This document shows positions 3,096 through 56,139 of a stretch of DNA of 64,000 nucleotides, piece after piece (within the stretch, counting starts at the first letter, position 1; every line of letters starts with the position of its first letter). A model generated the notes under the pieces. The model had not been told where the DNA came from, did no database searches, and saw only the letters and a list, made by a program, of their open reading frames with translations. Position numbers and translations under genes: made by a program. The DNA is taken from sequence record MK524176.1; one strand, 5' to 3'. This DNA is from Escherichia phage PHB11.

Positions 3096-3542
3096 ATGGC
3101 TATGTATCAGCAATATTCCCCTAAAGACGTTGTATGTAGCTGGAATGGCATTGCTATTGAAGGCTTTGCTCCAGATTCATTCTTGCGTCTACAGAGAACA
3201 TCACCACTTATTACACCAGTTGTAGGTGCGGGTGGTCAGGTTGCTCTGACAAGAAATGCAGACAAGACAGGTACTATTGAGATTGAGCTAATGCAGACTT
3301 CTCTCTCTAATCAGATGCTTTCTGCAATTCAAGCTAAACAAGACAATATGGAACTTGAAGAAGATATCTCTTCTAACTTCGTAATCTACGACCCATCAGG
3401 CTCTGTTCTGGCAACTGGTATTAATGCTTGGTTGCAGGAACTACCGCAGATTGAACTTGGTCGTGACCAGAACTCTAAGACTTGGATTTTTGGTTGTGAG
3501 AAGCTAGACTACACTTCTACAATTCCAGCGTCAAGTGTTTAA
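3096..3542 (+). CDS. Putative tail tube protein
   Basis: 148 aa, between sheath candidate and chaperone pair; followed by an intrinsic terminator. Confidence 0.45.
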   Translation: MAMYQQYSPKDVVCSWNGIAIEGFAPDSFLRLQRTSPLITPVVGAGGQVALTRNADKTGTIEIELMQTSLSNQMLSAIQAKQDNMELEEDISSNFVIYDPSGSVLATGINAWLQELPQIELGRDQNSKTWIFGCEKLDYTSTIPASSV

Positions 3543-3554
3543 TAAATCCTATAA

Positions 3555-3588
3555 GGGGGAGACTTTAAAAGGTCTTCCCCTTTTTTGT
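3555..3588 (+). terminator. Intrinsic terminator after the tube gene
   Basis: GGGGGAGAC-TTTAAAA-GGTCTTCCCC hairpin followed by a T-run. Confidence 0.6.
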
Positions 3589-3615
3589 TTCTTTTAAAAG
3601 TATTAAGGAATCACA

Positions 3616-4014
3616 ATGAAAACAGAAGCTAGAGTAATTAATGGTAAGAAAGTAAATATCATTCTGCTTGGGGCAAGAGATGGTATTAAGATGTCTATGA
3701 AGTTGGGTAAAATTGTTGTTCCAACTTTTGCACAGATGCTATCAAGTCTGACTGATAAAGATAAGAAAGAAGTTCCAATGGTTCCATTTAAAGAACTTGT
3801 TGAGGCTTGTTTTGACAGAATTGAAGAAATTAACCTTGAAGAAATGGCTACCCTGCTATTTCAAGGGGCAACTGTTGATGACTTCCCACTTAATATTGAT
3901 ACATACTTCCAAGCAAACTATGGCGAATTTATTGATTACTTAGCATTTGCGCTGGAGGCAAACTTCGGAAGTTTTTTCGAAGCAAGCATTTTCAAAAGCC
4001 TAACTTCTCAGTAA
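3616..4014 (+). CDS. Tail assembly chaperone (gpG-like, zero-frame product)
   Basis: 132 aa ORF immediately upstream of the tape measure gene; contains slippery heptamer TTTTTTC near its 3' end. Confidence 0.5.
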   Translation: MKTEARVINGKKVNIILLGARDGIKMSMKLGKIVVPTFAQMLSSLTDKDKKEVPMVPFKELVEACFDRIEEINLEEMATLLFQGATVDDFPLNIDTYFQANYGEFIDYLAFALEANFGSFFEASIFKSLTSQ

Positions 4015-4256: not shown

Positions 4257-9619
<5,363 letters not shown>

Positions 9620-9620
<1 letters not shown>

Positions 9621-11089
9621 TGGCAGGACTAACTACAACAGGATTACAAACTCTAAGATATCAGGAGATTTTTGATAATATCAAATCAAGACTTCTTAGA
9701 GATATTTCACCAAACCTTGACGTTTCTGAAGATAGTCAATTAGGACTCTTCCTAGCTTCAATTGCAAGGTCTTTAGCAGATACCCATGAGATTCTATCAG
9801 AAGTCTATGACGGTGGAACAATTGACAAGGCCGAAGGCTTTAACCTTGATGATATTACAGCTTTAAATGCTGTATATAGATATGTTGCTCAGGCAACAAG
9901 AGGTCAGGTAGAGTTTACTGGAACGACTGGTGCTACCATTCCTTCAACAACAAGACTAAGAAGTACTGCCGGAAATATCTTTTATCCAGTTAACAACATT
10001 ACCCTAACCCCATCATATTGTGTTGAAGCTGTCCTTGAAGTTAACTCTTTACGAACTGATGCAGATTATGTTATTATTATTGATAACGTCATTTTCTCAT
10101 ATAAACCAACCTCATCAGACACAATCACCACACTTCTAACAAAATTAGCAGAAGCTATTAATGGTGGTATTGTAGCAAAGGCAGAAGTCATTAATGATGG
10201 AGCATCATTAAGAGTCTATAAAGATGAGGGTGATATCATTGCCAGAACAAACCCTATGGTTGTCACTGCGACAACGTTTCTGACCTTTACAAAAATTACA
10301 ACTATTTCAGATGTAGTAGCTGAAGAGGTGGGTGCTACTCCTGCTTTGGCTGGTACACTTATTGAGATTGAGACAACTGTTGATGGCCTTGACAGTATTT
10401 ATAACAGGTATGACTTAACAACTGGTAGAAACGAAGAAACTGACACAGAACTTAGACAGAGATATTTAGAGTCCTTAGCAGTTACTGGTGTAGGAACTTT
10501 GGATGCAATTGTAGCTGCTGTTAAAAGAGTTCAAGGTGTCTCAGATGCTTCAGGTGTTGAAAATGATACTGAAGAGACAAACTCAGAAGGTCTTCCACCA
10601 AAATCTTTTAAGATTGTTGTAGTTGGTGGTCAAAATGATAATGTAGCTCAGGCAATCTGGGATACAAAGCCTGCTGGTATTAGGGCTTATGGCTCAATTT
10701 TTGGTACAGCCCACGATTTAGGTGGTTTGGCACATAATATTTATTTCAGCAGACCAACACCAAAATACGCATTTGTTAAGGTGTCTTACTCACTATATGA
10801 TGAAGAAAGCTTGACAATCCCTGAAGAGGATATCAGAGACAGTATTGTGCAAGGTATTAATGCCTACGGAAGAACTCTTAAGGTTGGTAATGATGTTATC
10901 CCTAACAGAATCTATGGACATATCTATGACGTAATTAAAGGTATTGAGATTAATGAAGTCAAGGTAGCATTATCAAACAGCCAATCAGTTCCACCTAGTG
11001 ACGGACAATATACTACAGGAAGAATTACTGTTGACGGTGACCAATATACTGTTTGGGAAAGTAGCCAGTATACCATCACTAAGGAGTAA
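9620..11089 (+). CDS. Putative baseplate J-like protein
   Basis: 489 aa ORF in canonical W-J-I order upstream of tail fibres. Confidence 0.45.
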
Positions 11090-15921: not shown

Positions 15922-16119
15922 ATGCCTACAATCCTAGCAATTCTTCTAAAAAATCTAGGTAGCTTCTTCTGGAAACTCATTTTATCCCTTCTAAGTGAAT
16001 ACATGATTGAGAAAGTGTTCTTTAGGCTTGCAAGATACCTTGCGAGTAAAACAGACACACCTATTGATGATGAGTTCGTAGATAACTTAGAAAAAGCTTT
16101 TAAGGGGGAGAATAAATGA
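15922..16119 (+). CDS. Small membrane protein (unknown; holin-like topology not established)
   Basis: 65 aa with hydrophobic N-terminal segment ILAILLKNLGSFFWKLILSLL. Confidence 0.35.
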   Translation: MPTILAILLKNLGSFFWKLILSLLSEYMIEKVFFRLARYLASKTDTPIDDEFVDNLEKAFKGENK

Positions 16120-16487
16120 AGTGGCTAGAGGAAGCTTTTAAAAATAATATTGGTGCAATTGTAGTTGGTATTTTTAGTGTTATTGGGATGTACACCACCA
16201 TGCAAGTTTCGGATGGTAAACAAGAAGTGTCTATCACAACAAAGTTACAGCAGTTAGATAATTATTCCAAAAGTAATTATTCAGCTATTCGTGATTTACA
16301 GTCTGATATGAGGCTGCTTCAGCTAGGGATGGAGAACCAGAAAGTCCAGTTAGAGAATGTTAAGGGTGAGAACGCAAAACTTACTAAGACTCTTGATAAA
16401 TTCTCTGATAGTGTAAACAATCTGGCTCAATCAGTATCAGCCCTCCAAGCTATTACTGAAAAGAACACAAAGAATACTGAAAAGTAA
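16116..16487 (+). CDS. Membrane-anchored coiled-coil protein (unknown)
   Basis: N-terminal hydrophobic helix IGAIVVGIFSVIGMY followed by heptad-rich region. Confidence 0.35.
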   Translation: MKWLEEAFKNNIGAIVVGIFSVIGMYTTMQVSDGKQEVSITTKLQQLDNYSKSNYSAIRDLQSDMRLLQLGMENQKVQLENVKGENAKLTKTLDKFSDSVNNLAQSVSALQAITEKNTKNTEK

Positions 16488-23638: not shown

Positions 23639-24154
23639 TCAACTTAGTTTTGCAAACTCTCCGTGGAGTTTTATCGCAGCTTCACAGTAAGCTTTATGGG
23701 CCTCTTCTTCTGTTGTGTACGTCCCGATATGTATAGTCTTACCATTATGGCTAATCTGGGCTTTCCACTTACCAGACTTACTTCTACTTGTACCTTTTAA
23801 GTTTTTTGATGTTCTAGGTTGCCTCCTATTAGACATGTTCTGTTCTTTTGTGGCCTCTCTAAGATTGTCCCAAGCATTATTCAAACCGTTCCCGTCTTTG
23901 TGGTCAATATGATTGTCAGGCCACTTACCTGTCATCCAGAACCAAGCAATTCGGTGATTGCCTGTCCTGTATCCTAAAATCTGGGTTTGCATATACACAC
24001 CAGACCTTGTGCGCTTGATTGTACCAGCCTGTCTTCCAATCACCACCCTACTGCTATGTGGAGGTCTGCCAATCCAAGTCAAGACCCCTGTTTCGGGGTC
24101 GTAGTCTAACCAAGATTTTAACTGTTCATGTGTGAATCCACAATCTCTCATCAA
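23639..24154 (-). CDS. HNH homing endonuclease with AP2 DNA-binding domain
   Basis: HNH_3-type motif HIDHKDGNGLNNAWDNLREAT and AP2-like block GKWKAQISHNGKTIHIGTYTTEEEAHKAY; 4 nt overlap with the DNA polymerase gene. Confidence 0.7.
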   Translation of the reverse strand: MMRDCGFTHEQLKSWLDYDPETGVLTWIGRPPHSSRVVIGRQAGTIKRTRSGVYMQTQILGYRTGNHRIAWFWMTGKWPDNHIDHKDGNGLNNAWDNLREATKEQNMSNRRQPRTSKNLKGTSRSKSGKWKAQISHNGKTIHIGTYTTEEEAHKAYCEAAIKLHGEFAKLS

Positions 24155-26850
24155 TGTACCTCATACCACGATTTACCAACCTTACCAGTACCTGTAACAA
24201 GTGTTTCTTTCTTTAGTCCTAAGTTTTTAGAAGCTTGTCCATAATACCAATCAGTGACAGCTTTCACCTCTGCCGTCATACTTTCTGGGCATTCCCAACT
24301 CGTCTCATCGTGATAGGAGCACAATAAACGAGCACCTATAGCTGGTTTGCGACCGTTTAACTTCATCAAACCTTCGTCAATCATACGACGACAAGCGAGG
24401 TTAATTGCTTCATTCTGAATCTGGCTTTCCGAACCCATGAGCAAATAATTCAATAACTTATGTGGAGATTTACACCACAACCAAGCTCCAGCAACCTTTA
24501 CAAAACCCCCTTTAGAGATTGCAGCAGTCTTACCAAACACCTCTTCAAGTGCCTTTTTAGTCGCTTTGTAGTCAGCTTCCAAGTCATCTAGTAGCTTCTT
24601 AATCTTAGGCAAACGGATAAAGTAAGTCTGTTTAGTCAGTGCACCTTCCTGAGTAGTTGCAGCTTTAATTGTCTTAGCAAACTTCTCATCACCTGCACCA
24701 AACAGTAGTGCATAGATACCATTCTTAGCTTTCTTACGACCCTTGCTAATCTCATGAAGAAGGTTCTCATCCTGAGTAGCTCGACAAGTCAAGATATCCT
24801 GCTCATCATTCAAGCTAAAGTAAATACTATTCAGTGTGTGTGCATCAGTCCCTGAATAGACAACGTAAAGGTCATTCTCAGAGTCATAACGCAGATACTT
24901 GTCAACTTCTGGGTTAAGGTACTCATCAAAATGTTTGCAGTAATAGCGTCCATCTTCTTGACGAATAAACTCAATCTCTTCTTTACCTTGCGTTACCGCT
25001 TTGGTGAAGTCTTTGTCACCCATAAAGTTACAAAGGAGAACTAGCTGGGCTGAGTTCATGTCTACAGAGACAACGTTAGTACCTTCTTCACAAATCCACA
25101 CTGCCCTCATTGGCTCACCGTAAACAGCAGCACCAGAAGGTACGTTTACAATACCATACTGAGTCATACGTCCAGTAGAAGTACCAAACACCATTGCACC
25201 AGCACTAAGGCGACCATCAGGACGAATCTGGTTCAACCAACCTTTTTCATCATCTTTTGAGTTCTCAATAGTTCTGCGTCGGTGCATCAAAGTATAGTAT
25301 TTAGCAATCTTCTGTCCAAGCTCACCTTCAATCGTATCATAAGATGATTCAGTAAGTTTTGGTGAAGTACGGATTAAGCAAGGCTCAAGCAAATCTGTGT
25401 ACTTCTTCACAGACCAGTTATGCTCAATGTACTGGACACCTTCGTGTTCAACATAACTCAAGCCACATCGTTCAACCATCTCCTGCCACTTAGGATGCTT
25501 TGTAATCATCTTTTTGTTGTCTTTGAAACGACAAACTTTGACAGGACGACCGTCAGAGTCTTTCTTGTAGTTCCAGTCATCTGGAATCCAACCAACTGAT
25601 TTCAAGTAATCTTTAACAACTGCTACCTGAGTCATACGAGAAACTTCGAACTCAATTGGTGTATATGGTGCATCAATCAAACCTGTGTAGCGACTTGACT
25701 CAAGCTCAAAGTGGTTAACGACATGGCTGTTATAGTACTTCACAGTTTTAACTGTTTTTACTGGCTTCCAGTCTTTGCACTTCTTACCAATCTTTGCATT
25801 CAACTCATTGCAAATTGCACGAGCATCCTTCATTGCTACAAAACCTTCCTTGTACTCTTCACCAGTTACAGAGTTGGTTGGTGTATAGCAATTCCGCTTT
25901 TCAATGTTAAAAATCTTTGTAGTTGGCTTACCAAATGGCTTGATTTCGTATGTCTGCATCTCACCGTTACGTACCTGTTGACGATACTTTGTCTTAGGGT
26001 ACTTGGTAATTCTCTTCAGTCCATCTGCATGACCGAATGCTTCAACATACTCATTCCAAGCTTTTGCAAACTCTTCTCCAGTGACTTTACCTTTGGTCTT
26101 AATAGTTGGAGGAAGATGTGGTTCAACCTCTGAAGCAAGCTCATTAGTCAACTTGTCAAGTTCCTTTACATGGAACTCCATAAGCTCTTTATCAGCTTTC
26201 CAACCATTGATAGCTTGTTGACTCATCCAGAAAGATGTTTCTTTAGCTCGCATATAGGTTTCATAGGTATCTATGCCACACTTCTTTAGCTTGAGATATT
26301 CATTATCCAGTGCACGTTTAGTTTTGGCGTTAATACGGATATCTTCTACAACACGAGTGAAGATTTCTGCATTCCACACACCCCAATGTTCAATCTCTGG
26401 TTTACGTACACCAACACGAGCACCCCATGCTGCCAAGCCATGAGCACCTTTATAGCCCTTTGGAGTTGGTCTATCCATCCACTGAACACGAGACTGGATA
26501 AGAGAATCCTGAAAGAAATTACTCCACGGCTTACACTTTGGATTATCAAAGTTCCACAAATCAGGTGCAATGTGATTGAAAACCCACCAGTCATATCCCA
26601 GACCATTATGGATGCAAAGTCGTTTTGCCTTTAACGCAAACTCAACACCTTCACGCAAGCCACCCTTAATGTACTTGGTATACTTGTGACCGAGGATAGG
26701 CTCATCTGTAAAGACCCATACAGGTGGCTCTTCATCGTCAGATTTATAGTCTGCGAAAGCCATTACGTGCACTTTAGTGAACTCAAGGAGTAAACCATCA
26801 GTTTCTGTATCACCAACTAAATGTAAGTTTTTAAAATCTACGTTTTCCAT
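24151..26850 (-). CDS. DNA polymerase, family A (T7 gp5-like) with 3'-5' exonuclease domain
   Basis: Exo I VGDTETDG; motif A DMNSAQLVLL; motif B RKKAKNGIYALLFGAG; motif C SYHDE; start set at the Met preceded by GAGGGAG SD (ORF track begins at 26880). Confidence 0.85.
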   Translation of the reverse strand: MENVDFKNLHLVGDTETDGLLLEFTKVHVMAFADYKSDDEEPPVWVFTDEPILGHKYTKYIKGGLREGVEFALKAKRLCIHNGLGYDWWVFNHIAPDLWNFDNPKCKPWSNFFQDSLIQSRVQWMDRPTPKGYKGAHGLAAWGARVGVRKPEIEHWGVWNAEIFTRVVEDIRINAKTKRALDNEYLKLKKCGIDTYETYMRAKETSFWMSQQAINGWKADKELMEFHVKELDKLTNELASEVEPHLPPTIKTKGKVTGEEFAKAWNEYVEAFGHADGLKRITKYPKTKYRQQVRNGEMQTYEIKPFGKPTTKIFNIEKRNCYTPTNSVTGEEYKEGFVAMKDARAICNELNAKIGKKCKDWKPVKTVKTVKYYNSHVVNHFELESSRYTGLIDAPYTPIEFEVSRMTQVAVVKDYLKSVGWIPDDWNYKKDSDGRPVKVCRFKDNKKMITKHPKWQEMVERCGLSYVEHEGVQYIEHNWSVKKYTDLLEPCLIRTSPKLTESSYDTIEGELGQKIAKYYTLMHRRRTIENSKDDEKGWLNQIRPDGRLSAGAMVFGTSTGRMTQYGIVNVPSGAAVYGEPMRAVWICEEGTNVVSVDMNSAQLVLLCNFMGDKDFTKAVTQGKEEIEFIRQEDGRYYCKHFDEYLNPEVDKYLRYDSENDLYVVYSGTDAHTLNSIYFSLNDEQDILTCRATQDENLLHEISKGRKKAKNGIYALLFGAGDEKFAKTIKAATTQEGALTKQTYFIRLPKIKKLLDDLEADYKATKKALEEVFGKTAAISKGGFVKVAGAWLWCKSPHKLLNYLLMGSESQIQNEAINLACRRMIDEGLMKLNGRKPAIGARLLCSYHDETSWECPESMTAEVKAVTDWYYGQASKNLGLKKETLVTGTGKVGKSWYEVH

Positions 26851-26910
26851 TTTTACTCCCTCTAAAATCATTAACCCCATACATTACTGCAAAAAATTAT
26901 AAAAAGCAAG

Positions 26911-39560: not shown

Positions 39561-39802
39561 TGACTTATGTAATTTACTCCAAAACTGGATGCCCTCAGTG
39601 TGAGACTGCAAAGAATTTTGCAAAAGCTCGTGGTATTGACCATGTTGTAAGAATGTTGGGGCAGGATTATGAACTGTCAGACCTGATTGATATTGCACAG
39701 ATGCCAGTTCGTCAGATGCCATTCATCATGAAAACTGATGGTCAAAATCTAAAACCTGTTGGAACGCTACAGAATTTCATGGCAGAGGTGAATAATGCTT
39801 AA
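39560..39802 (+). CDS. Glutaredoxin/thioredoxin-like redoxin (RNR reductant candidate)
   Basis: CPQC active-site motif in an 80 aa protein directly after nrdB. Confidence 0.6.
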   Translation: MTYVIYSKTGCPQCETAKNFAKARGIDHVVRMLGQDYELSDLIDIAQMPVRQMPFIMKTDGQNLKPVGTLQNFMAEVNNA

Positions 39803-40049: not shown

Positions 40050-42194
40050 ATGAACAAAGTACAGATTATTAAAAAGAACGGCTCACTTGAAGAACCTGAT
40101 ATCAAAAAAGTTTTAGCAGCAGTAACTAAGTCAGCTAACAGAGTTGGGTATAAAGAACTCCCACCAGATGTTACCCAAGCTCTTGAGTCAGCATTTATGA
40201 GGATTCTGGTAAAGTCCACTAAGCAGAATAATTTGCTCATCTCGGTAAACGATATTCACAGTATTGTTGAAGGTGCTTTGGCAGAAGTCAATCACGAGAT
40301 TTATGAGTCTTACTCAACATACAGAAATTACCGTAAAGAGGTTGCTCAAAATTGGGATGAGCTTTACCAAAAGACTAAAGACACACTCTTCTTAGGTGAC
40401 CGTGAAAACGCTAACTTTGACAGTAGTTTAATTTCTACAAAAGGCTCAATTATTCGTGGTTACCTGACTAAAGAAATCTTTAAACAGTACCATTTAACAC
40501 CAGAGGAACTTGAAGCCATTGAAAAAGGGTTTATCTACATCCATGACTTAAGAGACCTAATTTTTGGTGGGATTAACTGTTGCCTGTTTGACATTGGTAG
40601 AGTACTGAAAGGTGGCTTTGAAATGTCTGGCATCGAATACTGTGAACCGAAGTCTGTACTGTCAGCCTTACAGGTTATCGGTGATGTAGTTCTTTCAGCA
40701 ACTGCACAGCAATTTGGTGGCTTTACTTTAGCAGAGATTGACAAGGTGCTTGTACCGTATGCTAAGAAGTCTCTACGCTATCATGCTGAGAAAGCAGCAT
40801 CTTACGGTATTCCTAAAGAACATTACCATAATTATGTCATGGAGCAGCTACAGATTGAATTAACTCAAGGTTTCCAGTCACTAGAGATGAAGCTAAATAC
40901 TGTACCTTGTAGCCGTGGTGATTTCGCATTCACAACTTTAACATTTGGTTTACTTGACTCAGACATGTCTAATGAAGACAACCGACTACAATACATGATT
41001 GCAAACACCATTCTTGATGTTCGCATGAATGGACAAGGTAAGAGCAAGAAGCCTGTTGTATTCCCTAAACTGGTTTATATTCATGACCAGAAGAGACACG
41101 ATGAGAATATCTGTCAAGGTCAACTGTACAGTAAAGCTATTGAGTGTTGCTCTAAAGCTATGTATCCAGATTTCTTAAGTGTATCTGGTCATGGTGCTGC
41201 AGCAGAGGCTTTTGAGCGTTCTGGCAAGGTAATTTCACCGATGGGTTGCAGAGCTTTCTTATCCCCATATTTTAACGAGAATGGAGAAGAGTTCTACGTT
41301 GGACGTGCTAACATTGGTGCTGTATCTTTGAACTTGCCAATGATTTACCAGTATTCTAAAGAGAATGGTTTAGATTTCTGGAAAGAGCTTGATAAGTACC
41401 TAGAGATGATTCGCAGCTTCCACAAGAAACGCTACGAAATGATTGCTAATATGCCAGCAAGCTCTAACCCTCTTGCATTCACACAAGGTGGTCTGTACAA
41501 AGGGACTAAGAAACCTACTGACAAGGTTGGTTGGGATATCGTGAAGTCTTTCACAGCTTCTTTTGGGGTTACTGCACTTGATGAGTTATCTGTTCTTGCT
41601 GAGGGTAAACGACTTCATGAAGTTGGAAGCTGTAGTTTTGCATACGATGTTCTGGCATACATTAACATGAAAACTGAAGAGTTTAAGAACGAAGATGGCT
41701 TCTTGTATGCGGTATATGGCACTCCAGCAGAGTCATTGTGTGGAACTCAGCTAAAACAGTTCAGAGATATGTTTGGCGTTATCAAAGGTGTTTCTGATAA
41801 GGAATATTTTACAAACAGTTTCCATATGAATGTTGCAGCAGATATCTCACCATTTGAGAAGCAGGACTTAGAAGAACCATTCTTCCATATCTGTAGAGGT
41901 GGTAGAATCCAGTATGTAAGGGTAGCTAACCCAGAAAACTTACCAGCACTTAAAAGTTGTATTACAAGAGGGATGTTGAAAGGTTTTTATCAGGGACTTA
42001 ACTTTGACTTAGCAATCTGTGAACATTGTGGTAACAGACCAAAGGCTGATGTTGAAGAATGTGAGGTTTGCCATTCACATGACATCTCTGTGATTAACAG
42101 GGTGTGTGGGTATCTTGGGTGGACTAAGATTAAAGGCGAATCCCGAATGAACGATGCAAAAATTGCTGAGATTCGTGATAGAGTCTCTATGTAA
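40050..42194 (+). CDS. nrdD: Anaerobic ribonucleotide reductase (class III)
   Basis: N-terminal ATP-cone, C-terminal zinc ribbon CEHCGN...CEVCH and glycyl-radical motif RVCGYLGW. Confidence 0.85.
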   Translation: MNKVQIIKKNGSLEEPDIKKVLAAVTKSANRVGYKELPPDVTQALESAFMRILVKSTKQNNLLISVNDIHSIVEGALAEVNHEIYESYSTYRNYRKEVAQNWDELYQKTKDTLFLGDRENANFDSSLISTKGSIIRGYLTKEIFKQYHLTPEELEAIEKGFIYIHDLRDLIFGGINCCLFDIGRVLKGGFEMSGIEYCEPKSVLSALQVIGDVVLSATAQQFGGFTLAEIDKVLVPYAKKSLRYHAEKAASYGIPKEHYHNYVMEQLQIELTQGFQSLEMKLNTVPCSRGDFAFTTLTFGLLDSDMSNEDNRLQYMIANTILDVRMNGQGKSKKPVVFPKLVYIHDQKRHDENICQGQLYSKAIECCSKAMYPDFLSVSGHGAAAEAFERSGKVISPMGCRAFLSPYFNENGEEFYVGRANIGAVSLNLPMIYQYSKENGLDFWKELDKYLEMIRSFHKKRYEMIANMPASSNPLAFTQGGLYKGTKKPTDKVGWDIVKSFTASFGVTALDELSVLAEGKRLHEVGSCSFAYDVLAYINMKTEEFKNEDGFLYAVYGTPAESLCGTQLKQFRDMFGVIKGVSDKEYFTNSFHMNVAADISPFEKQDLEEPFFHICRGGRIQYVRVANPENLPALKSCITRGMLKGFYQGLNFDLAICEHCGNRPKADVEECEVCHSHDISVINRVCGYLGWTKIKGESRMNDAKIAEIRDRVSM

Positions 42195-51997: not shown

Positions 51998-52014
51998 TAA
52001 GTAATTTCTTAAAA

Positions 52015-52036
52015 GGCTGCTTCGGCGGCCTTTTTT
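52015..52036 (+). terminator. Intrinsic terminator after rIIB
   Basis: AGGCTGC-TTCG-GCGGCCT hairpin followed by TTTTTT; a TATAAT hexamer follows at 52061-52066. Confidence 0.55.
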
Positions 52037-52097: not shown

Positions 52098-52646
52098 ATG
52101 AAGAAGTTGATTCTAGGTTTGTGCTTAATGTTTACAGCACACTTATCTTATGCAGTTGACTGCCCAGAGCTATCAATTAGCCAAAAAGTAAACATGTTAA
52201 AAGCTTACCAGTATGGTGAGAATAATATGGGTAAAGGTTGGGGTATCACTCTAGCTGCTATAGCCTTACAAGAGTCAGAGTTAGGTCTGAAGGTAGAGAA
52301 TAAAAAGACCCATGACTATGGTATCTTCCAGAATCACTTGAAGACTGTTGTAAAGCGTAACAAAATCAGTCCTAATGTGGCTAAAAAGAAACTCTTAAAA
52401 GACTTTGACTATGCTGCAAAGGAAACACACAAAGAGCTTGAGTTTTGGACTAAGGTACATGGTCAACCAAAGTCAAAGAAGACTTTACAAAAAGTTTTAG
52501 CGTCATATAATGCTGGGTATTCGTACAAAATCCCTAAAGCTAAGAAATACTCTCAAGATGTTTACAACAATATGAAAGTCATCGCTCAATGTGAATTTGC
52601 AACAAACATTTCTAAGGTAAACCATGAAAAAATTAAGAAAGTCTGA
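52098..52646 (+). CDS. Secreted lytic transglycosylase (SLT domain); endolysin candidate
   Basis: Signal peptide MKKLILGLCLMFTAHLSYA; SLT motifs ALQESELG, YGIFQ, SYNAGYSY. Confidence 0.6.
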   Translation: MKKLILGLCLMFTAHLSYAVDCPELSISQKVNMLKAYQYGENNMGKGWGITLAAIALQESELGLKVENKKTHDYGIFQNHLKTVVKRNKISPNVAKKKLLKDFDYAAKETHKELEFWTKVHGQPKSKKTLQKVLASYNAGYSYKIPKAKKYSQDVYNNMKVIAQCEFATNISKVNHEKIKKV

Positions 52647-53319
52647 TGAAGTCCTGTGCCATGCTTACGACTTGCACCCTCATGAGTTAGGTCTTGATTC
52701 CTGTGTATGGACTCCAGAACAGTGCAGAGATTTTGAAGATACTGCAAGAGAAGTTGTATGTTCACTTGAAGAGTTCCACACATCAGAACCAATTGTGAGC
52801 GTTGTGGACAAAGAGACTGGACAATCTATAGGTGTAAGACGTGACAGTTTAGTCATAGTCAATAAAGACCTTGTAGAAAAAGGTAACCTCATCTTAGCAG
52901 ACATTGATGGTGTTCTTACAAATTTTAATCACGAAGATTGCTCAACAGAATTGATTGATGGGTCATTTTCACAGTACACTAATTTGCTTGACTCTGTAAG
53001 AGCAAAACCAACGTATGTTTTCAATATTATTGATGCAATTGCTAACCATGCTGCCATTGGACTCTTGACAGCGAGGGGTGAATCTCAGAGAATACCTACT
53101 GAGATGTTTTTAAGGCATTACATAGAGCATGATTACATGCTTTTCATGCGTGGTTTTGGAACTAACTCTATAGATGCAGAAAGTTTGAAAGTGAGGATGA
53201 TTCAGTCTTGCATTCTTCCTTACTTTAATATAGTATGTTTTATAGAAGATACAGAGAAGAATGTTCAGAAGGTAAACAGAATCCTTCCGCACATTAAAAC
53301 TATGTTAGTAAAACATTGA
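52624..53319 (+). CDS. HAD-superfamily 5'(3')-deoxyribonucleotidase-like phosphatase
   Basis: Motif I LADIDGVLTNF (DxDGVLxxF) typical of NT5C/HAD nucleotidases. Confidence 0.45.
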   Translation: MKKLRKSDEVLCHAYDLHPHELGLDSCVWTPEQCRDFEDTAREVVCSLEEFHTSEPIVSVVDKETGQSIGVRRDSLVIVNKDLVEKGNLILADIDGVLTNFNHEDCSTELIDGSFSQYTNLLDSVRAKPTYVFNIIDAIANHAAIGLLTARGESQRIPTEMFLRHYIEHDYMLFMRGFGTNSIDAESLKVRMIQSCILPYFNIVCFIEDTEKNVQKVNRILPHIKTMLVKH

Positions 53320-53329
53320 GAGAAAACTT

Positions 53330-53794
53330 ATGAACAATATCATTACGGTAGCACTGGACGTTACGGCAAACAAATCTGAAGTAGTTCGTAACATTATCAA
53401 AAGCAACTTTGAGGGTAAAATCTTCCGTGCTGTCAATGTAAAAGCAGACGGTAACATCCGAGAGTATCGTGCTCTTCTGAATGTTAAGAAACACGTCAAA
53501 GGTGCTGGTTCAACGACTGCACACAAAGAAAACCTGATGACTATCTATGATATGGGTATGGCTTCAGAGTTAGGTGCTGAAGGTATCGTTAAAGAAGGTG
53601 CTCCGTATCGCTCTTTCAATCTGGAAACTGCTCTTATGCTTTCCTTTACAAGTGGTTCTAAAACAACTACTTATCTCTTTACTGATGCTGCAACGGTATC
53701 TGCTATCAAGGATAGCACCGTCAAAGCTGGGGTAGCTGCTGCTGCAAAAGCTTCTTCGATGGCTGCAAATGTCCTTGCTAAAGTCCTCGGTTAA
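53330..53794 (+). CDS. Hypothetical protein
   Basis: 154 aa ORF followed by a terminator. Confidence 0.35.
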   Translation: MNNIITVALDVTANKSEVVRNIIKSNFEGKIFRAVNVKADGNIREYRALLNVKKHVKGAGSTTAHKENLMTIYDMGMASELGAEGIVKEGAPYRSFNLETALMLSFTSGSKTTTYLFTDAATVSAIKDSTVKAGVAAAAKASSMAANVLAKVLG

Positions 53795-53805
53795 GGTTAA
53801 GATAC

Positions 53806-53829
53806 AGGCTCCTTCGGGAGCCTTTTTCA
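53806..53829 (+). terminator. Intrinsic terminator
   Basis: AGGCTCC-TTCG-GGAGCCT hairpin followed by TTTTT. Confidence 0.6.
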
Positions 53830-53846
53830 TTTCAGGAGATTGTTAA

Positions 53847-54194
53847 ATGACATTTAAAGAGTTCTGCCAAGCTACTTTCATAATTGTTTTCTTAGTTGGA
53901 GCAGGTGTCTGGGGAGGATACTCTTACAGAGACTACCAAGTTGCTGAAGCTGAGCTAAATAATGAGAAACTAATAAGTGTTGCTAAAGATGCTTATCAGG
54001 AAGGTTTAGCCACACTCAGCACCAATTACAAAAATGATTTGAAAGACGTGCTTGCTAAGAATAAGCACACAAAAGAGGTACTAACATATGAAAAGACTAA
54101 GCCAGAGTTTTATAATGTTTGTGTTACTGATAATTATGTCAGGGTGTTCAACGAACAAAGTGAACAGTACATTCAAAAACTCCCAAGTAAGTGA
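53847..54194 (+). CDS. Inner-membrane spanin (Rz-like) candidate
   Basis: N-terminal TM helix FIIVFLVGAGVWGGYSY followed by periplasmic coiled-coil; overlaps an out-of-frame lipoprotein ORF. Confidence 0.45.
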   Translation: MTFKEFCQATFIIVFLVGAGVWGGYSYRDYQVAEAELNNEKLISVAKDAYQEGLATLSTNYKNDLKDVLAKNKHTKEVLTYEKTKPEFYNVCVTDNYVRVFNEQSEQYIQKLPSK

Positions 54195-54357
54195 GGGTGA
54201 CAAGTACACTCAAGAAGAGTCAAGATTCACTGTCAAAGGTAATACTGGTAGTGATGTGGCAGCAGCCCTTGAGTTTTATCGTGATGGTTTTTACCAGTGC
54301 ACAATCAAAGCTAATAACCTTATTGACATGATTTTATTAGGGAACAAACAGCAATGA
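54088..54357 (+). CDS. Outer-membrane spanin (Rz1-like lipoprotein) candidate, overlapping the i-spanin gene
   Basis: Signal peptide with lipobox-like IIMSGC; start embedded in the 3' part of 53847..54194 in another frame. Confidence 0.45.
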   Translation: MKRLSQSFIMFVLLIIMSGCSTNKVNSTFKNSQVSEGDKYTQEESRFTVKGNTGSDVAAALEFYRDGFYQCTIKANNLIDMILLGNKQQ

Positions 54358-55353: not shown

Positions 55354-56139
55354 ATGGGTATTGTAAAAATTATCAAAGGCAACATCTTTGACGCATTTGA
55401 TAAAGGTAAGTTTGATATCATTGGTCATGGTTGCAACTGTATGAATTTCATGGGTGCAGGTATTGCAGCAACTATTTCTAAGCGTTATCCAAAAGTATAT
55501 GATACTGATACAGAAGTTTACCTGTTTGCAGGTGGTATTCGTCACAAACCATGTGAAAATCTGCTAGGTAATTTCTCTGTAACACGTTTAAAACAAGGCC
55601 GTATAGCCAATCTTTACACCCAGCTTCATACCGGTAAAGATGCCCGATATAGTGCTTTAGAGTCATCTTTGAAACAGCTTAACAGATACTGTGAAGTTAA
55701 TCAGTTGAAGAAAGTTGGGTTACCTATGATTGGTGCAGGTATCGGTGGACTAGACCCTCAAGCCGTCACAGTTATCATTAATCAGGTGATGAAGAGTGTA
55801 GATGTTTACCTGTATGTCTATGAGACAGAGATGTACAACGAGTTACACTCAGGTTGGAAGAACTACTGTGAACCAGAATACTTTGCAGGTGTAGTAGTGT
55901 TCACTGATGATGCAGTTACCCTCTTCAGACGAAGAAAAGGCAAGATACATCAAAGTAACCCTCCGGTTGAAAAGATGTCTCTAAGTAACGCTCTAGTTAC
56001 CCACCTGTCGAAGAGCAATCACAGAATTGCAGTAACATTTGGCAGTGATGCAGATACATATATCTATGCAAGAACTGATGAGGATATCGAGACGGTCTTC
56101 TCTTCACCGGAAGTAACCTTCTTAGACGCAAAGAACTAA
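55354..56139 (+). CDS. Macro-domain protein (ADP-ribose binding/processing) with C-terminal extension
   Basis: Macro-like blocks IIKGNIFDA, DIIGHGCNCMNFMGAGIAATI and VGLPMIGAGIGGLDP. Confidence 0.55.
   Translation: MGIVKIIKGNIFDAFDKGKFDIIGHGCNCMNFMGAGIAATISKRYPKVYDTDTEVYLFAGGIRHKPCENLLGNFSVTRLKQGRIANLYTQLHTGKDARYSALESSLKQLNRYCEVNQLKKVGLPMIGAGIGGLDPQAVTVIINQVMKSVDVYLYVYETEMYNELHSGWKNYCEPEYFAGVVVFTDDAVTLFRRRKGKIHQSNPPVEKMSLSNALVTHLSKSNHRIAVTFGSDADTYIYARTDEDIETVFSSPEVTFLDAKN

What the first reader, a model, noticed from the sequence alone, without database searches (positions are those of the whole stretch)
52098..54357. Lysis cassette: signal-peptide lytic transglycosylase and overlapping spanin pair, no obvious adjacent holin
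52098..52646 has a Sec-type signal peptide and SLT motifs (ES, GIFQ, SYNAG). 53847..54194 (TM helix plus coiled-coil) and the embedded out-of-frame 54088..54357 (lipobox-like IIMSGC) form a classic overlapped Rz/Rz1-type arrangement. No canonical holin lies between them; candidates are the small membrane proteins at 15922, 39795 or 42350.
Basis: partly seen in the sequence, partly recalled or inferred. Interest (0 to 1): 0.35.

Follow-up and report, generated by a model that had tools for sequence, protein, structure and literature searches.

The report
Known Felix O1 spanins plus Vs.1-like transglycosylase
This stretch of a Felix O1-like phage genome holds an already catalogued pair of overlapping "spanin" genes that break the bacterial outer membrane at lysis, and, in a separate unit upstream, an exported cell-wall-cutting enzyme related to the uncharacterised T4 protein Vs.1; the two do not form a lysis cassette, so the finding is largely ordinary.

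Summary
The window is a Felixounavirus, 97-98.5% identical to annotated phages. All the ORFs named in the finding exist.

**Spanins.** 53847..54194 and 54088..54357 form a genuine two-component spanin pair. The second gene is in the +1 frame and overlaps the first by 107 nt. Its lipobox is IMSGC, with Ser at +2. The pair is conserved down to 30% identity. It is already annotated in GenBank and listed as "overlapped" in the Kongari 2018 spanin census.

**SLT protein.** 52098..52646 is a real GH23/SLT-fold protein with a cleavable Sec signal. E59-S60, GxFQ and SYNAG are conserved, and the AF2 model scores pLDDT 85. It is the homologue of T4 Vs.1 (same PHROG 600; found in >2000 phage records). 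In T4 that gene is prereplicative, its function is unknown, and its SLT similarity was noted in 2006.

**Not a cassette.** Terminator-like hairpins, a polynucleotide kinase gene and an unknown gene separate the SLT gene from the spanins. Its synteny follows rIIB/PNK, not the spanins.

**Rest of the lysis system.** The family's characterised endolysin is a soluble GH24 lysozyme, and it is not encoded in this window.

**Verdict.** The features are already known and interest is low.

The parts
52011..52034 (+). Intrinsic-terminator-like hairpin after rIIB. It marks the upstream boundary of the SLT-PNK-unknown unit.
   Evidence: 10-bp stem with 5 GC pairs and a T-run. A terminator is annotated at the equivalent place in phage Mijalis.
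52098..52646 (+). Vs.1-family exported GH23/SLT-fold muramidase, probably a lytic transglycosylase. Signal peptide is residues 1-19 (52098..52154). The catalytic Glu59 codon is 52272..52274.
   Evidence: Found. Pfam SLT scores 18.8 bits, below the 21.3 cut-off. PHROG 600 matches at 1e-57, and T4 Vs.1 hits the same PHROG at 2e-68. BLASTP to T4 Vs.1 gives 2e-16. The motif residues are invariant. The AF2 model has pLDDT 84.8. Foldseek returns g-type lysozymes, EtgA, Cj0843 and MltF and phage SLT proteins. A PDB profile search finds EtgA at 7e-4.
52624..53319 (+). Polynucleotide kinase/phosphatase-like gene (PseT-like). It overlaps the SLT gene by 23 nt and is not a lysis gene.
   Evidence: PHROG 3970 matches at 5e-134. 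The SLT-PNK pairing is kept in the distant relative L005.
53330..53794 (+). Conserved soluble protein of unknown function (PHROG 2267).
   Evidence: It travels with PNK in Mooglevirus, Kolesnikvirus and L005.
53806..53823 (+). Terminator-like hairpin 24 nt upstream of the i-spanin start codon.
   Evidence: A terminator is annotated in Mijalis at the same place.
53847..54194 (+). i-spanin: an inner-membrane protein with an N-terminal TMD (about residues 6-24), a periplasmic domain and a conserved Cys92.
   Evidence: PHROG 1152 'Rz-like spanin' matches at 9e-42. Hydropathy shows the TMD. There are 402 phage records with homologues, many annotated i-spanin or Rz-like. The Cys is conserved in divergent relatives.
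54088..54357 (+). o-spanin: an outer-membrane lipoprotein precursor. It lies in the +1 frame and overlaps the i-spanin gene by 107 nt. The lipobox IMSGC is at 54133..54147, with Ser at +2. The mature protein is 70 aa, proline-free, and has a second Cys at residue 71.
   Evidence: PHROG 4180 matches at 4e-50 and PHROG 456 'Rz-like spanin' at 4e-4. It is conserved in 312 records. The lipobox is kept in six divergent relatives. CPT annotates the same start in Mijalis.
16116..16487 (+). Putative class III holin (123 aa, one N-terminal TMD at about residues 11-31, helical C-terminal part). It belongs to the same dispersed lysis system but lies far from the finding.
   Evidence: It is 97.6% identical to the RefSeq BPS17W1 'holin'. 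The topology-based assignment comes from the Mushroom genome paper. It matches only PHROG 4038, of unknown function, and has no similarity to T4 T.

Best explanation
The finding joins two unrelated things that happen to lie 1.2 kb apart in the T4-like prereplicative gene block of a Felix O1-like myophage (rIIA, rIIB, vs.1-like, pseT-like PNK, spanins, tk.4-like macro-domain phosphatase).

**(a) Spanin pair, 53847..54194 and 54088..54357.**
- This is a two-component spanin of the overlapped class.
- The i-spanin is anchored in the inner membrane by its N-terminal TMD.
- The o-spanin is made as a prolipoprotein, lipidated at Cys20 and sorted to the outer membrane (Ser at +2).
- By analogy with lambda Rz/Rz1 and T4 PseT.3/PseT.2, the two bind across the periplasm. 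Once the endolysin has removed the peptidoglycan mesh, they fuse the inner and outer membranes as the last step of lysis. This mechanism is inferred and was not tested for this family.

**(b) SLT protein, 52098..52646.**
- This is the Felixounavirus member of the T4 Vs.1 family. It is a small GH23/SLT-fold enzyme carrying the catalytic Glu of lytic transglycosylases.
- A cleavable signal peptide exports it through Sec into the periplasm, independently of any holin.
- By analogy with T4 vs.1 it is probably made before late gene expression.
- It most likely cuts or remodels host peptidoglycan in a limited, non-lytic way as an accessory function. It is not the phage's endolysin.

**Lysis proper.** Lysis in this phage group uses a soluble GH24 lysozyme encoded outside the window, a putative one-TMD holin at 16116..16487, and the spanins.

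**Shown versus inferred.**
- Shown here: the fold, the motifs, the signal and lipobox sequences, the conservation, the homology to Vs.1 and the gene order.
- Inferred: export, enzymatic activity, timing and physiological role.
For: **Identity of the window**
- It is 97-98.5% identical to Felixounavirus genomes.

**Spanins**
- PHROG 1152 'Rz-like spanin' matches the i-spanin at 9e-42.
- The TMD and the lipobox are present.
- The pair is conserved in 312 (o-spanin) and 402 (i-spanin) records.
- The lipobox Cys, a second o-spanin Cys and a periplasmic i-spanin Cys are kept in Mooglevirus, Kolesnikvirus, Arno18, Proteus Gorganvirus and LPML1.
- In Proteus phage 2207-N35 the homologous pair sits directly after the annotated endolysin. 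In Arno18 it sits directly after a GH24 lysozyme.
- Relatives annotate the pair as spanins, and the published census lists Felix O1 as overlapped.

**SLT protein**
- E59, G63, Q78, Y137, N138 and G140 are invariant.
- The AF2 model has pLDDT 84.8.
- Foldseek hits are GH23 g-type lysozymes, a GH23 chitinase, EtgA, Cj0843, MltF and phiKZ gp144, at probability about 1 for the best hits, plus phage SLT proteins.
- A profile search finds EtgA at 7e-4.
- Homology to T4 Vs.1 is supported by BLASTP 2e-16 and a shared PHROG 600.
- Cys22 and Cys165 are present or absent together among homologues, which fits a periplasmic disulfide.
- T4 vs.1 has early RNA and middle protein.

**Separation from the spanins**
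- Terminator-like hairpins flank the SLT unit.
- Synteny follows rIIB/PNK in L005, with no spanins adjacent.

**Dispersed lysis genes**
- The Moogle and Mushroom genome papers describe scattered lysis genes.
- The GH24 endolysin is not in the window.
Against: - No experiment exists for any of these genes in this phage group in the literature I could search.
- Pfam SLT is below its gathering score (18.8 vs 21.3 bits).
- Foldseek TM-scores to solved structures are only about 0.5.
- There is no room for a promoter between the hairpin at 53806-53823 and the i-spanin start. The spanins must therefore be read through from upstream, so SLT and spanins could share a transcript.
- Some depositors call the SLT gene 'putative lysin'.
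- A secreted phage transglycosylase acting as an additional endolysin has a precedent in Kayvirus Tgl.
- The claimed coiled-coil in the i-spanin could not be confirmed.
- The holin assignment has no profile support.
Confidence: 0.8

Rival explanations
1. The signal-peptide transglycosylase is a holin-independent, Sec-exported endolysin, and together with the spanins downstream it forms a compact lysis cassette.
For: - It has the signal peptide, the GH23 fold and an invariant catalytic Glu.
- Some records label it 'putative lysin' and UniRef names it 'Lysin'.
- Kayvirus Tgl is a secreted transglycosylase that lyses E. coli when expressed and acts beside the main endolysin.
- Read-through of the hairpin at 53806-53823 is needed to express the spanins, so co-transcription is possible.
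Against: - Relatives encode a separate soluble GH24 endolysin, described as the lysis enzyme. An endolysin from the Felix O1-like phage BPS15S6 has been characterised; I saw this only as a reference-list title.
- The homologue T4 Vs.1 is prereplicative. From my own knowledge of T4 genetics, T4 e mutants do not lyse even though vs.1 is intact.
- Two unrelated genes and two hairpins separate it from the spanins.
- The linkage to the spanins is not conserved.
Confidence: 0.12
2. The SLT protein is a virion-associated peptidoglycan-piercing enzyme used at infection, like T7 gp16 or PRD1 P7, and not an intracellularly produced periplasmic enzyme.
For: - Foldseek also hits virion or tail-associated SLT domains, including tape-measure and tail lysozyme proteins and PRD1 P7.
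- T4 Vs.1 weakly matches PHROG 2013 'lytic tail protein'.
Against: - All homologues carry an N-terminal cleavable signal peptide. That would send the protein out of the cytoplasm, where virions assemble.
- It is a small stand-alone domain sitting among early genes, next to rIIB and PNK.
- The Bas63 (Felixounavirus) virion cryo-EM paper mentions transglycosylase only in connection with another system. This is weak negative evidence.
Confidence: 0.04
3. The o-spanin ORF 54088..54357 is a chance overlapping ORF, and only the TMD protein 53847..54194 is made.
For: - Several GenBank records do not annotate it, or they start it downstream of the lipobox.
- PHROG 4180 is labelled 'unknown function'.
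Against: - The ORF is intact in 312 records down to 30% identity.
- The signal peptide, the lipobox Cys and a C-terminal Cys-containing motif are conserved across five divergent lineages.
- It has its own GAGG ribosome-binding site.
- It is catalogued as a spanin.
Confidence: 0.03

Closest known systems
Felix O1 / FO1a / UAB_Phi87 two-component spanins (overlapped class, Kongari et al. 2018, PMC6139136)
   Same: These are the same genes. The i-spanin is 97% identical and the o-spanin 93% identical to the Felix O1 proteins, with the same overlapped layout.
   Different: Nothing of substance differs. Several GenBank relatives mis-start or omit the o-spanin gene.
Lambda Rz/Rz1 and T4 PseT.3/PseT.2 spanins
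   Same: Both have an inner-membrane TMD subunit plus an outer-membrane lipoprotein subunit encoded by adjacent genes, with periplasmic Cys residues. As in T4, the pair lies away from the holin and endolysin, near a pseT-type kinase gene and among early genes.
   Different: The layout is overlapped, whereas lambda's is embedded and T4's is separated. The tblastn rows listed for the i- and o-spanin queries included no T4-type phage. The mature o-spanin has no proline, unlike the proline-rich Rz1. The i-spanin periplasmic part is not clearly coiled-coil.
T4 Vs.1 (NP_049725; PHROG 600)
   Same: The length is the same (181 vs 182 aa). Both have a signal peptide and the E-S, FQ and YN-G motifs. Identity is 32% at E = 2e-16, and both match the same PHROG over their full length. 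Both sit in blocks of T4-type early-gene homologues that include a tk.4-type macro-domain gene.
   Different: The neighbours differ: regB and vs in T4, rIIB and PNK here. I found no published function for either protein. The SLT similarity of vs.1 was already noted in 2006.
EtgA / IagB / VirB1-type 'specialised' small periplasmic lytic transglycosylases, and goose-type lysozymes (GH23)
   Same: These are the best solved-structure matches by sequence profile and by fold. They share the catalytic Glu-Ser motif, a size of about 150-190 aa and Sec export.
   Different: They show only 14-17% identity and TM-scores of about 0.5. Those bacterial enzymes serve the assembly of secretion systems; no such partner is evident here.
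Kayvirus Tgl (secreted phage transglycosylase, PMC7150955)
   Same: It is a phage-encoded, signal-peptide-exported transglycosylase-motif enzyme. It is expressible from an early-type promoter and is encoded in addition to the main endolysin.
   Different: Its host is Gram-positive. Homology to it was not tested here. Tgl lies a few genes from lysK and has demonstrated lytic activity; nothing has been demonstrated for the protein here.

Membership tests
Two-component spanin (i-spanin + o-spanin) | The i-spanin has a single N-terminal TMD with the bulk of the protein in the periplasm. | tested here: met
   There is one hydrophobic segment at about residues 6-24 and none elsewhere. PHROG 1152 'Rz-like spanin' matches at 9e-42.
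Two-component spanin (i-spanin + o-spanin) | The o-spanin has a lipoprotein signal with a lipobox Cys and no inner-membrane retention residue (Asp) at +2. | tested here: met
   The sequence is MKRLSQSFIMFVLLIIMSGC followed by S-T. It fits the PROSITE-type lipobox pattern and has Ser at +2. The feature is conserved in six divergent relatives.
Two-component spanin (i-spanin + o-spanin) | The two genes are adjacent in an embedded, overlapped or separated layout, i-spanin first. | tested here: met
   The layout is overlapped: +1 frame, 107 nt shared, 163 nt beyond the i-spanin stop. The same layout is seen in relatives.
Two-component spanin (i-spanin + o-spanin) | There is at least one periplasmic Cys available for homotypic disulfide bonds. 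| tested here: met
   i-spanin Cys92 and o-spanin Cys71 are both conserved in distant homologues. The rule is described.
Two-component spanin (i-spanin + o-spanin) | The i-spanin periplasmic domain is predicted to be helical or coiled-coil. | tested here: inconclusive
   The heptad contrast was no better than shuffles (374/500). The single-sequence AF2 model had pLDDT 51, with helices at residues 27-71 followed by short strands.
Two-component spanin (i-spanin + o-spanin) | The pair forms a complex across the periplasm and is required for outer-membrane disruption (complements lambda Rz/Rz1). | not testable with these tools
   This needs genetics or biochemistry. The only indirect support is that homologues lie next to endolysins in Proteus 2207-N35 and Arno18.
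GH23 / SLT-domain lytic transglycosylase (Pfam PF01464) | The sequence passes the family profile at its curated threshold. | tested here: not met
   The score is 18.8 bits against a gathering score of 21.3. More distant homologues in the same alignment do carry precomputed PF01464 hits.
GH23 / SLT-domain lytic transglycosylase (Pfam PF01464) | The catalytic Glu-Ser motif and the GxxQ and (A/S)YNxG motifs are present. | tested here: met
   E59, Q78, Y137, N138 and G140 are invariant, and S60 is conserved in at least 90% of the 15 sequences. The Glu aligns with the Glu of the corresponding E-S motif in EtgA and goose lysozyme.
GH23 / SLT-domain lytic transglycosylase (Pfam PF01464) | The protein has the goose-lysozyme-like all-alpha fold. 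| tested here: met
   The AF2 model has pLDDT 84.8. The top Foldseek hits are all GH23 enzymes at probability about 1, though with TM-scores of only about 0.5. BFVD SLT proteins reach TM 0.66-0.73 among the top hits.
GH23 / SLT-domain lytic transglycosylase (Pfam PF01464) | It cleaves MurNAc-GlcNAc bonds and forms 1,6-anhydroMurNAc. | not testable with these tools
   This needs an enzyme assay. Sequence alone cannot separate a transglycosylase from a hydrolytic g-type lysozyme.
T4 Vs.1 family (PHROG 600) | There is a full-length match to the family profile and pairwise homology to T4 Vs.1. | tested here: met
   The window protein matches PHROG 600 at 1.1e-57 over residues 1-170. T4 Vs.1 matches at 2.1e-68. 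BLASTP gives 2e-16, and tblastn works both ways.
Sec-exported or SAR holin-independent endolysin | It has an N-terminal secretion signal on a muralytic domain. | tested here: met
   The signal peptide shows n-, h- and c-regions with an S-Y-A cleavage motif, conserved among homologues. The h-region is short and strongly hydrophobic, which fits a cleavable signal better than a SAR anchor; this is my inference.
Sec-exported or SAR holin-independent endolysin | It is the enzyme responsible for peptidoglycan degradation at lysis, a late lysis gene linked to a holin or pinholin. | tested here: not met
   A separate GH24 endolysin exists in relatives. The T4 homologue is prereplicative. No holin is adjacent. 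A direct test needs genetics.
Contiguous lysis cassette (holin-endolysin-spanin) | The lysis genes are contiguous and co-conserved as a unit. | tested here: not met
   PNK, an unknown gene and hairpins intervene. The SLT-spanin linkage is lost in L005 and T4, and the SLT gene is not detected next to the Arno18 spanins. The literature states that the lysis genes of Felix O1-like phages are scattered.
Class III holin (T4 T-like), for 16116..16487 | It has a single TMD in N-in/C-out orientation with a periplasmic C-terminal domain. | tested here: inconclusive
   One TMD at about residues 11-31 was found. Orientation was not tested. There is no similarity to T4 T and no holin profile hit. Its position after the tail-fibre gene parallels T4 t after genes 37/38.

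The most novel reading that the evidence does not exclude
The Vs.1 family is a signal-peptide GH23 enzyme found in more than 2000 phage records across Tevenvirinae, Ackermannviridae, Ounavirinae and Vibrio giant T4-likes. On this reading it is a prereplicative, holin-independent periplasmic effector whose job is not lysis. Candidate jobs are local remodelling of the sacculus to permit cell enlargement or to condition it for later spanin action, interference with superinfecting phages, or release of muropeptides. That would make it a widespread, uncharacterised class of phage-host cell-wall manipulation.
Probability: 0.3. Interest if true: 0.45.

Novelty: already known. Interest (0 to 1): 0.12.

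Why it matters
- **Annotation.** The o-spanin start should be 54088. Several GenBank relatives start it after the lipobox or omit it.
- **SLT gene.** It should be labelled as a Vs.1-family exported SLT-domain protein, not as 'lysin' or 'PseT'.
- **Lysis system.** Felix O1-like phages have a dispersed, T4-style lysis system, not a cassette.
- **Open question.** The only one touched is old and modest. It asks what the widely conserved periplasmic Vs.1 transglycosylase does during T4-type infections. This window adds one more member and no new handle on the question.

Tried and rejected
- **Endolysin in the window.** I searched with the BPS17W1 GH24 endolysin by tblastn and found no hit. The main lysis enzyme therefore lies outside the 64 kb.
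- **Holin versus T4 T.** BLASTP of the 123-aa putative holin against T4 T found nothing. Pfam, PHROG and NCBIfam gave only coiled-coil noise or unknown families.
  - 15922 (65 aa) shows no TMD at the hydropathy thresholds I used.
  - 39795 (68 aa) has two TMDs and lies between the glutaredoxin and nrdD genes.
  - 42350 (66 aa) has one or two TMDs.
  - All three match only unknown or 'membrane protein' PHROGs. None can be confirmed or excluded.
- **Coiled-coil in the i-spanin.** The heptad test was not significant and the single-sequence AF2 model was uninformative (pLDDT 51). I did not run a fold search on it.
- **NCBIfam.** It gave nothing meaningful for the SLT protein, the spanins or T4 Vs.1.
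- **Literature.** Searches for Felixounavirus transcriptomics and for functional work on Vs.1 or the Felix O1 SLT protein found none. One toxic-protein screen paper turned out to be unrelated.
- **LGLC as a lipobox.** I considered the LGLC sequence in the SLT signal peptide. I rejected it because Leu at -1 does not fit the lipobox and the Cys is not conserved.


Full report
**What the window is.** The stretch 51900-54700 matches 257 phage records by megablast. Of these, 245 match over at least 80% of the query, and the best are 97-98.5% identical: E. coli phage Shy and Salmonella phages ph2-2 and BPS17W1. All are Felixounavirus, that is, Felix O1-like myophages. Gene order in the RefSeq record BPS17W1 maps colinearly onto the window in reverse orientation.

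**Checking the observation.**
- All four ORFs are present at the stated coordinates.
- The 182-aa ORF 52098..52646 has an AGGAG ribosome-binding site.
- Its N-terminus is MKKLILGLCLMFTAHLSYA|VD. This has a basic n-region, a short strongly hydrophobic core and a small-x-small cleavage motif.
- 53847..54194 (115 aa) has one hydrophobic segment at about residues 6-24.
- 54088..54357 (89 aa) is in the +1 frame relative to it. It shares 107 nt with it and extends 163 nt beyond its stop. The layout is therefore "overlapped", not "embedded".
- It has a GAGG ribosome-binding site 9 nt upstream and begins MKRLSQSFIMFVLLIIMSGC-ST. That is a lipoprotein signal with the lipobox Cys at residue 20 and Ser at +2.

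**The spanin pair is real and already known.**
- The i-spanin matches PHROG 1152 "Rz-like spanin" at 9e-42. The o-spanin matches PHROG 4180 (unlabelled) and, weakly, PHROG 456 "Rz-like spanin".
- tblastn finds the o-spanin ORF intact in 312 phage records and the i-spanin in 402, down to 26-35% identity. Many of these are annotated i-spanin, o-spanin or Rz-like spanin.
- I read six of the more divergent loci: Mooglevirus Mijalis, two Kolesnikvirus phages, Pectobacterium Arno18, Proteus Gorganvirus 2207-N35 and "Listeria" LPML1. In every one, the ORF overlapping the 3' end of the TMD protein gene encodes a basic N-terminus, a hydrophobic core and a lipobox (LISGC, TTASC, SISAC, IIAGC or IMSGC) followed by Ser-Thr. 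Each also has a conserved C-terminal Cys-containing motif, and the i-spanin keeps a periplasmic Cys.
- In the Proteus phage the pair directly follows the annotated endolysin, after two small genes. In Arno18 a GH24 lysozyme homologous to the Felix O1-type endolysin sits directly upstream. Both cases support the lysis role by association.
- The spanin census of Kongari et al. 2018 lists (Felix01, FO1a, UAB_phi87) under the overlapped class.
- Two details stay open. The "coiled-coil" could not be confirmed: a heptad test was no better than shuffles and the AF2 model had pLDDT 51. The mature o-spanin has no proline, unlike lambda Rz1.

**The SLT protein is a genuine GH23-fold enzyme and the T4 Vs.1 homologue.**
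- Pfam SLT is just below threshold, at 18.8 against 21.3 bits.
- In an alignment of 15 homologues down to 29% identity, E59, G63, Q78, Y137, N138 and G140 are invariant, and every full-length homologue has an N-terminal signal-like segment.
- Cys22 and Cys165 are present or absent together, which fits a periplasmic disulfide.
- A profile search of PDB sequences gives the type III secretion transglycosylase EtgA (7e-4) and goose lysozymes, with the Glu-Ser motif aligned.
- The AF2 model is confident, with pLDDT 84.8 overall and above 90 in the core. Its Foldseek matches are g-type lysozymes, a GH23 chitinase, EtgA, Cj0843, MltF and phiKZ gp144, plus phage proteins named SLT-domain proteins.
- tblastn against phage genomes finds homologues in 2128 records, including Tevenvirinae, Ackermannviridae and Vibrio giant T4-likes.
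- The T4 counterpart is vs.1 (181 aa). BLASTP gives 2e-16 at 32% identity. Both proteins match PHROG 600 over their full length.
- The SLT similarity of vs.1 was already reported in 2006.
- In T4, vs.1 has early RNA and middle protein.
- I found no functional study of Vs.1 or of the Felix O1 protein.

**Why this is not a lysis cassette.**
- Between the SLT gene and the spanins lie a PseT-like polynucleotide kinase gene (PHROG 3970, 5e-134) and a conserved soluble protein of unknown function.
- Terminator-like hairpins flank that three-gene unit at 52011-52034 and 53806-53823. CPT annotated terminators at the same positions in Mijalis.
- There is no room for a promoter between the second hairpin and the i-spanin start. 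Some read-through must therefore occur, and co-transcription cannot be excluded.
- In a distant relative (L005, 37% identity) the order NAPRTase - rIIA - rIIB - SLT - PNK - unknown is kept, but no spanin pair follows.
- In Kolesnikvirus three further genes are inserted between the unknown gene and the spanins.
- In Arno18 the spanins follow the endolysin, and no SLT or PNK homologue was detected in that locus.
- In T4, vs.1 and the spanins pseT.3/pseT.2 lie about 73 kb apart.
- Genome papers on Felix O1-like phages state that the lysis genes are scattered. [quoted passage not shown]
- That GH24 endolysin (BPS17W1 gp117) has no match in this window.
- From my own knowledge of T4 genetics, not tested here, T4 e mutants fail to lyse although vs.1 is intact. 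This argues that a Vs.1-type enzyme does not suffice for lysis.

**The holin.**
- The gene that RefSeq annotates as holin in BPS17W1 maps to 16116..16487 (97.6% identity). It lies just after the tail-fibre gene, as T4 t follows genes 37/38.
- It has one N-terminal TMD. It has no holin profile hit and no similarity to T4 T, so the assignment is topological only.
It has a strong GAGGTGA ribosome-binding site, and its stop codon overlaps the start of the 123-aa gene in an ATGA junction.
- The candidates at 39795 and 42350 are small membrane proteins within the nucleotide-metabolism block.

**Mechanism, with its basis.**
- *Shown:* the sequence features, the fold, the conservation, the homologies and the gene order.
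- *Inferred from the lambda and T4 paradigms:* the TMD-anchored i-spanin and the lipid-anchored o-spanin bridge the periplasm and fuse the two membranes once the endolysin has removed the peptidoglycan.
- *Inferred for the SLT protein:* Sec export, signal cleavage after Ala19, Glu59-dependent cleavage of glycan strands, production before late genes, and an accessory, non-lytic role.
- The closest demonstrated analogue of a secreted extra phage transglycosylase is Kayvirus Tgl. That keeps the "additional endolysin" reading alive at low probability.

**Verdict.** Everything here is already annotated or published for near-identical phages. The only open question is the long-standing unknown role of the Vs.1 family, and this window offers no new leverage on it. 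Interest is low.

Noticed in passing
window 15922..16119 and 16116..16487: A 65-aa ORF with a strong GAGGTGA ribosome-binding site has a stop codon that overlaps the start of the 123-aa putative holin gene in an ATGA junction. RefSeq BPS17W1 annotates only a 37-aa version starting at an internal Met that has no obvious ribosome-binding site. It could be a holin partner or antiholin, but I found nothing that tests this.
   Followed up: partly
window 55354..56139: The 'phosphatase' gene is a homologue of the T4 Tk.4 macro-domain (A1pp) protein (33% identity, 1e-20). Together with rIIA, rIIB, the Vs.1-like gene, the PseT-like PNK and the spanins, the region is a mosaic of genes whose homologues, or for the spanins functional counterparts, are early or middle genes in T4.
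   Followed up: partly
window 53806..53846: A strong terminator-like hairpin ends only 24 nt before the i-spanin start codon, leaving no room for a promoter. Spanin expression must depend on read-through, or the hairpin may act as an RNA-stabilising or processing element.
   Followed up: no
L008 (GCA_053226485.1, contig ACBEZJ010000004.1, 214,766 bp), genes at 6001-6582 and 8019-9953: A contig in a 'Campylobacter coli' assembly encodes a chimallin (PF25677, the phage-nucleus shell protein) close to a Vs.1/SLT homologue. It looks like a nucleus-forming jumbo phage genome inside a Campylobacter assembly.
   Followed up: no
GenBank MG065668.1 (Campylobacter phage A126), OK283618.1 (Listeria phage LPML1; L015): These records are labelled as Campylobacter and Listeria phages but carry Felix O1-type genes. 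A126 has an SLT protein 100% identical to the window's. LPML1 is classified in Ounavirinae and has a Gram-negative-style i-/o-spanin pair. The host labels look doubtful.
   Followed up: no
L001 (skuden) 5237..5458; L002 (Shy) 3199..3747 and 5261..5458: There are annotation errors in close relatives. The skuden and Shy o-spanin genes start at or after the lipobox, which removes the signal peptide. Shy also labels the SLT gene 'putative PseT polynucleotide', with the label apparently shifted by one gene.
   Followed up: yes
L005 5398..5905: In a distant relative (37% identical SLT protein), two small membrane-protein ORFs, apparently with two hydrophobic segments each (92 and 75 aa), sit between rIIB and the SLT gene. 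The window has nothing equivalent there. Their role is unknown.
   Followed up: no
window 24151..26880 and 40050..42194: The DNA polymerase (909 aa) and the NrdD-like reductase (714 aa) are single intact ORFs here. In BPS17W1 both are annotated in pieces, the reductase being interrupted by homing endonuclease genes.
   Followed up: no
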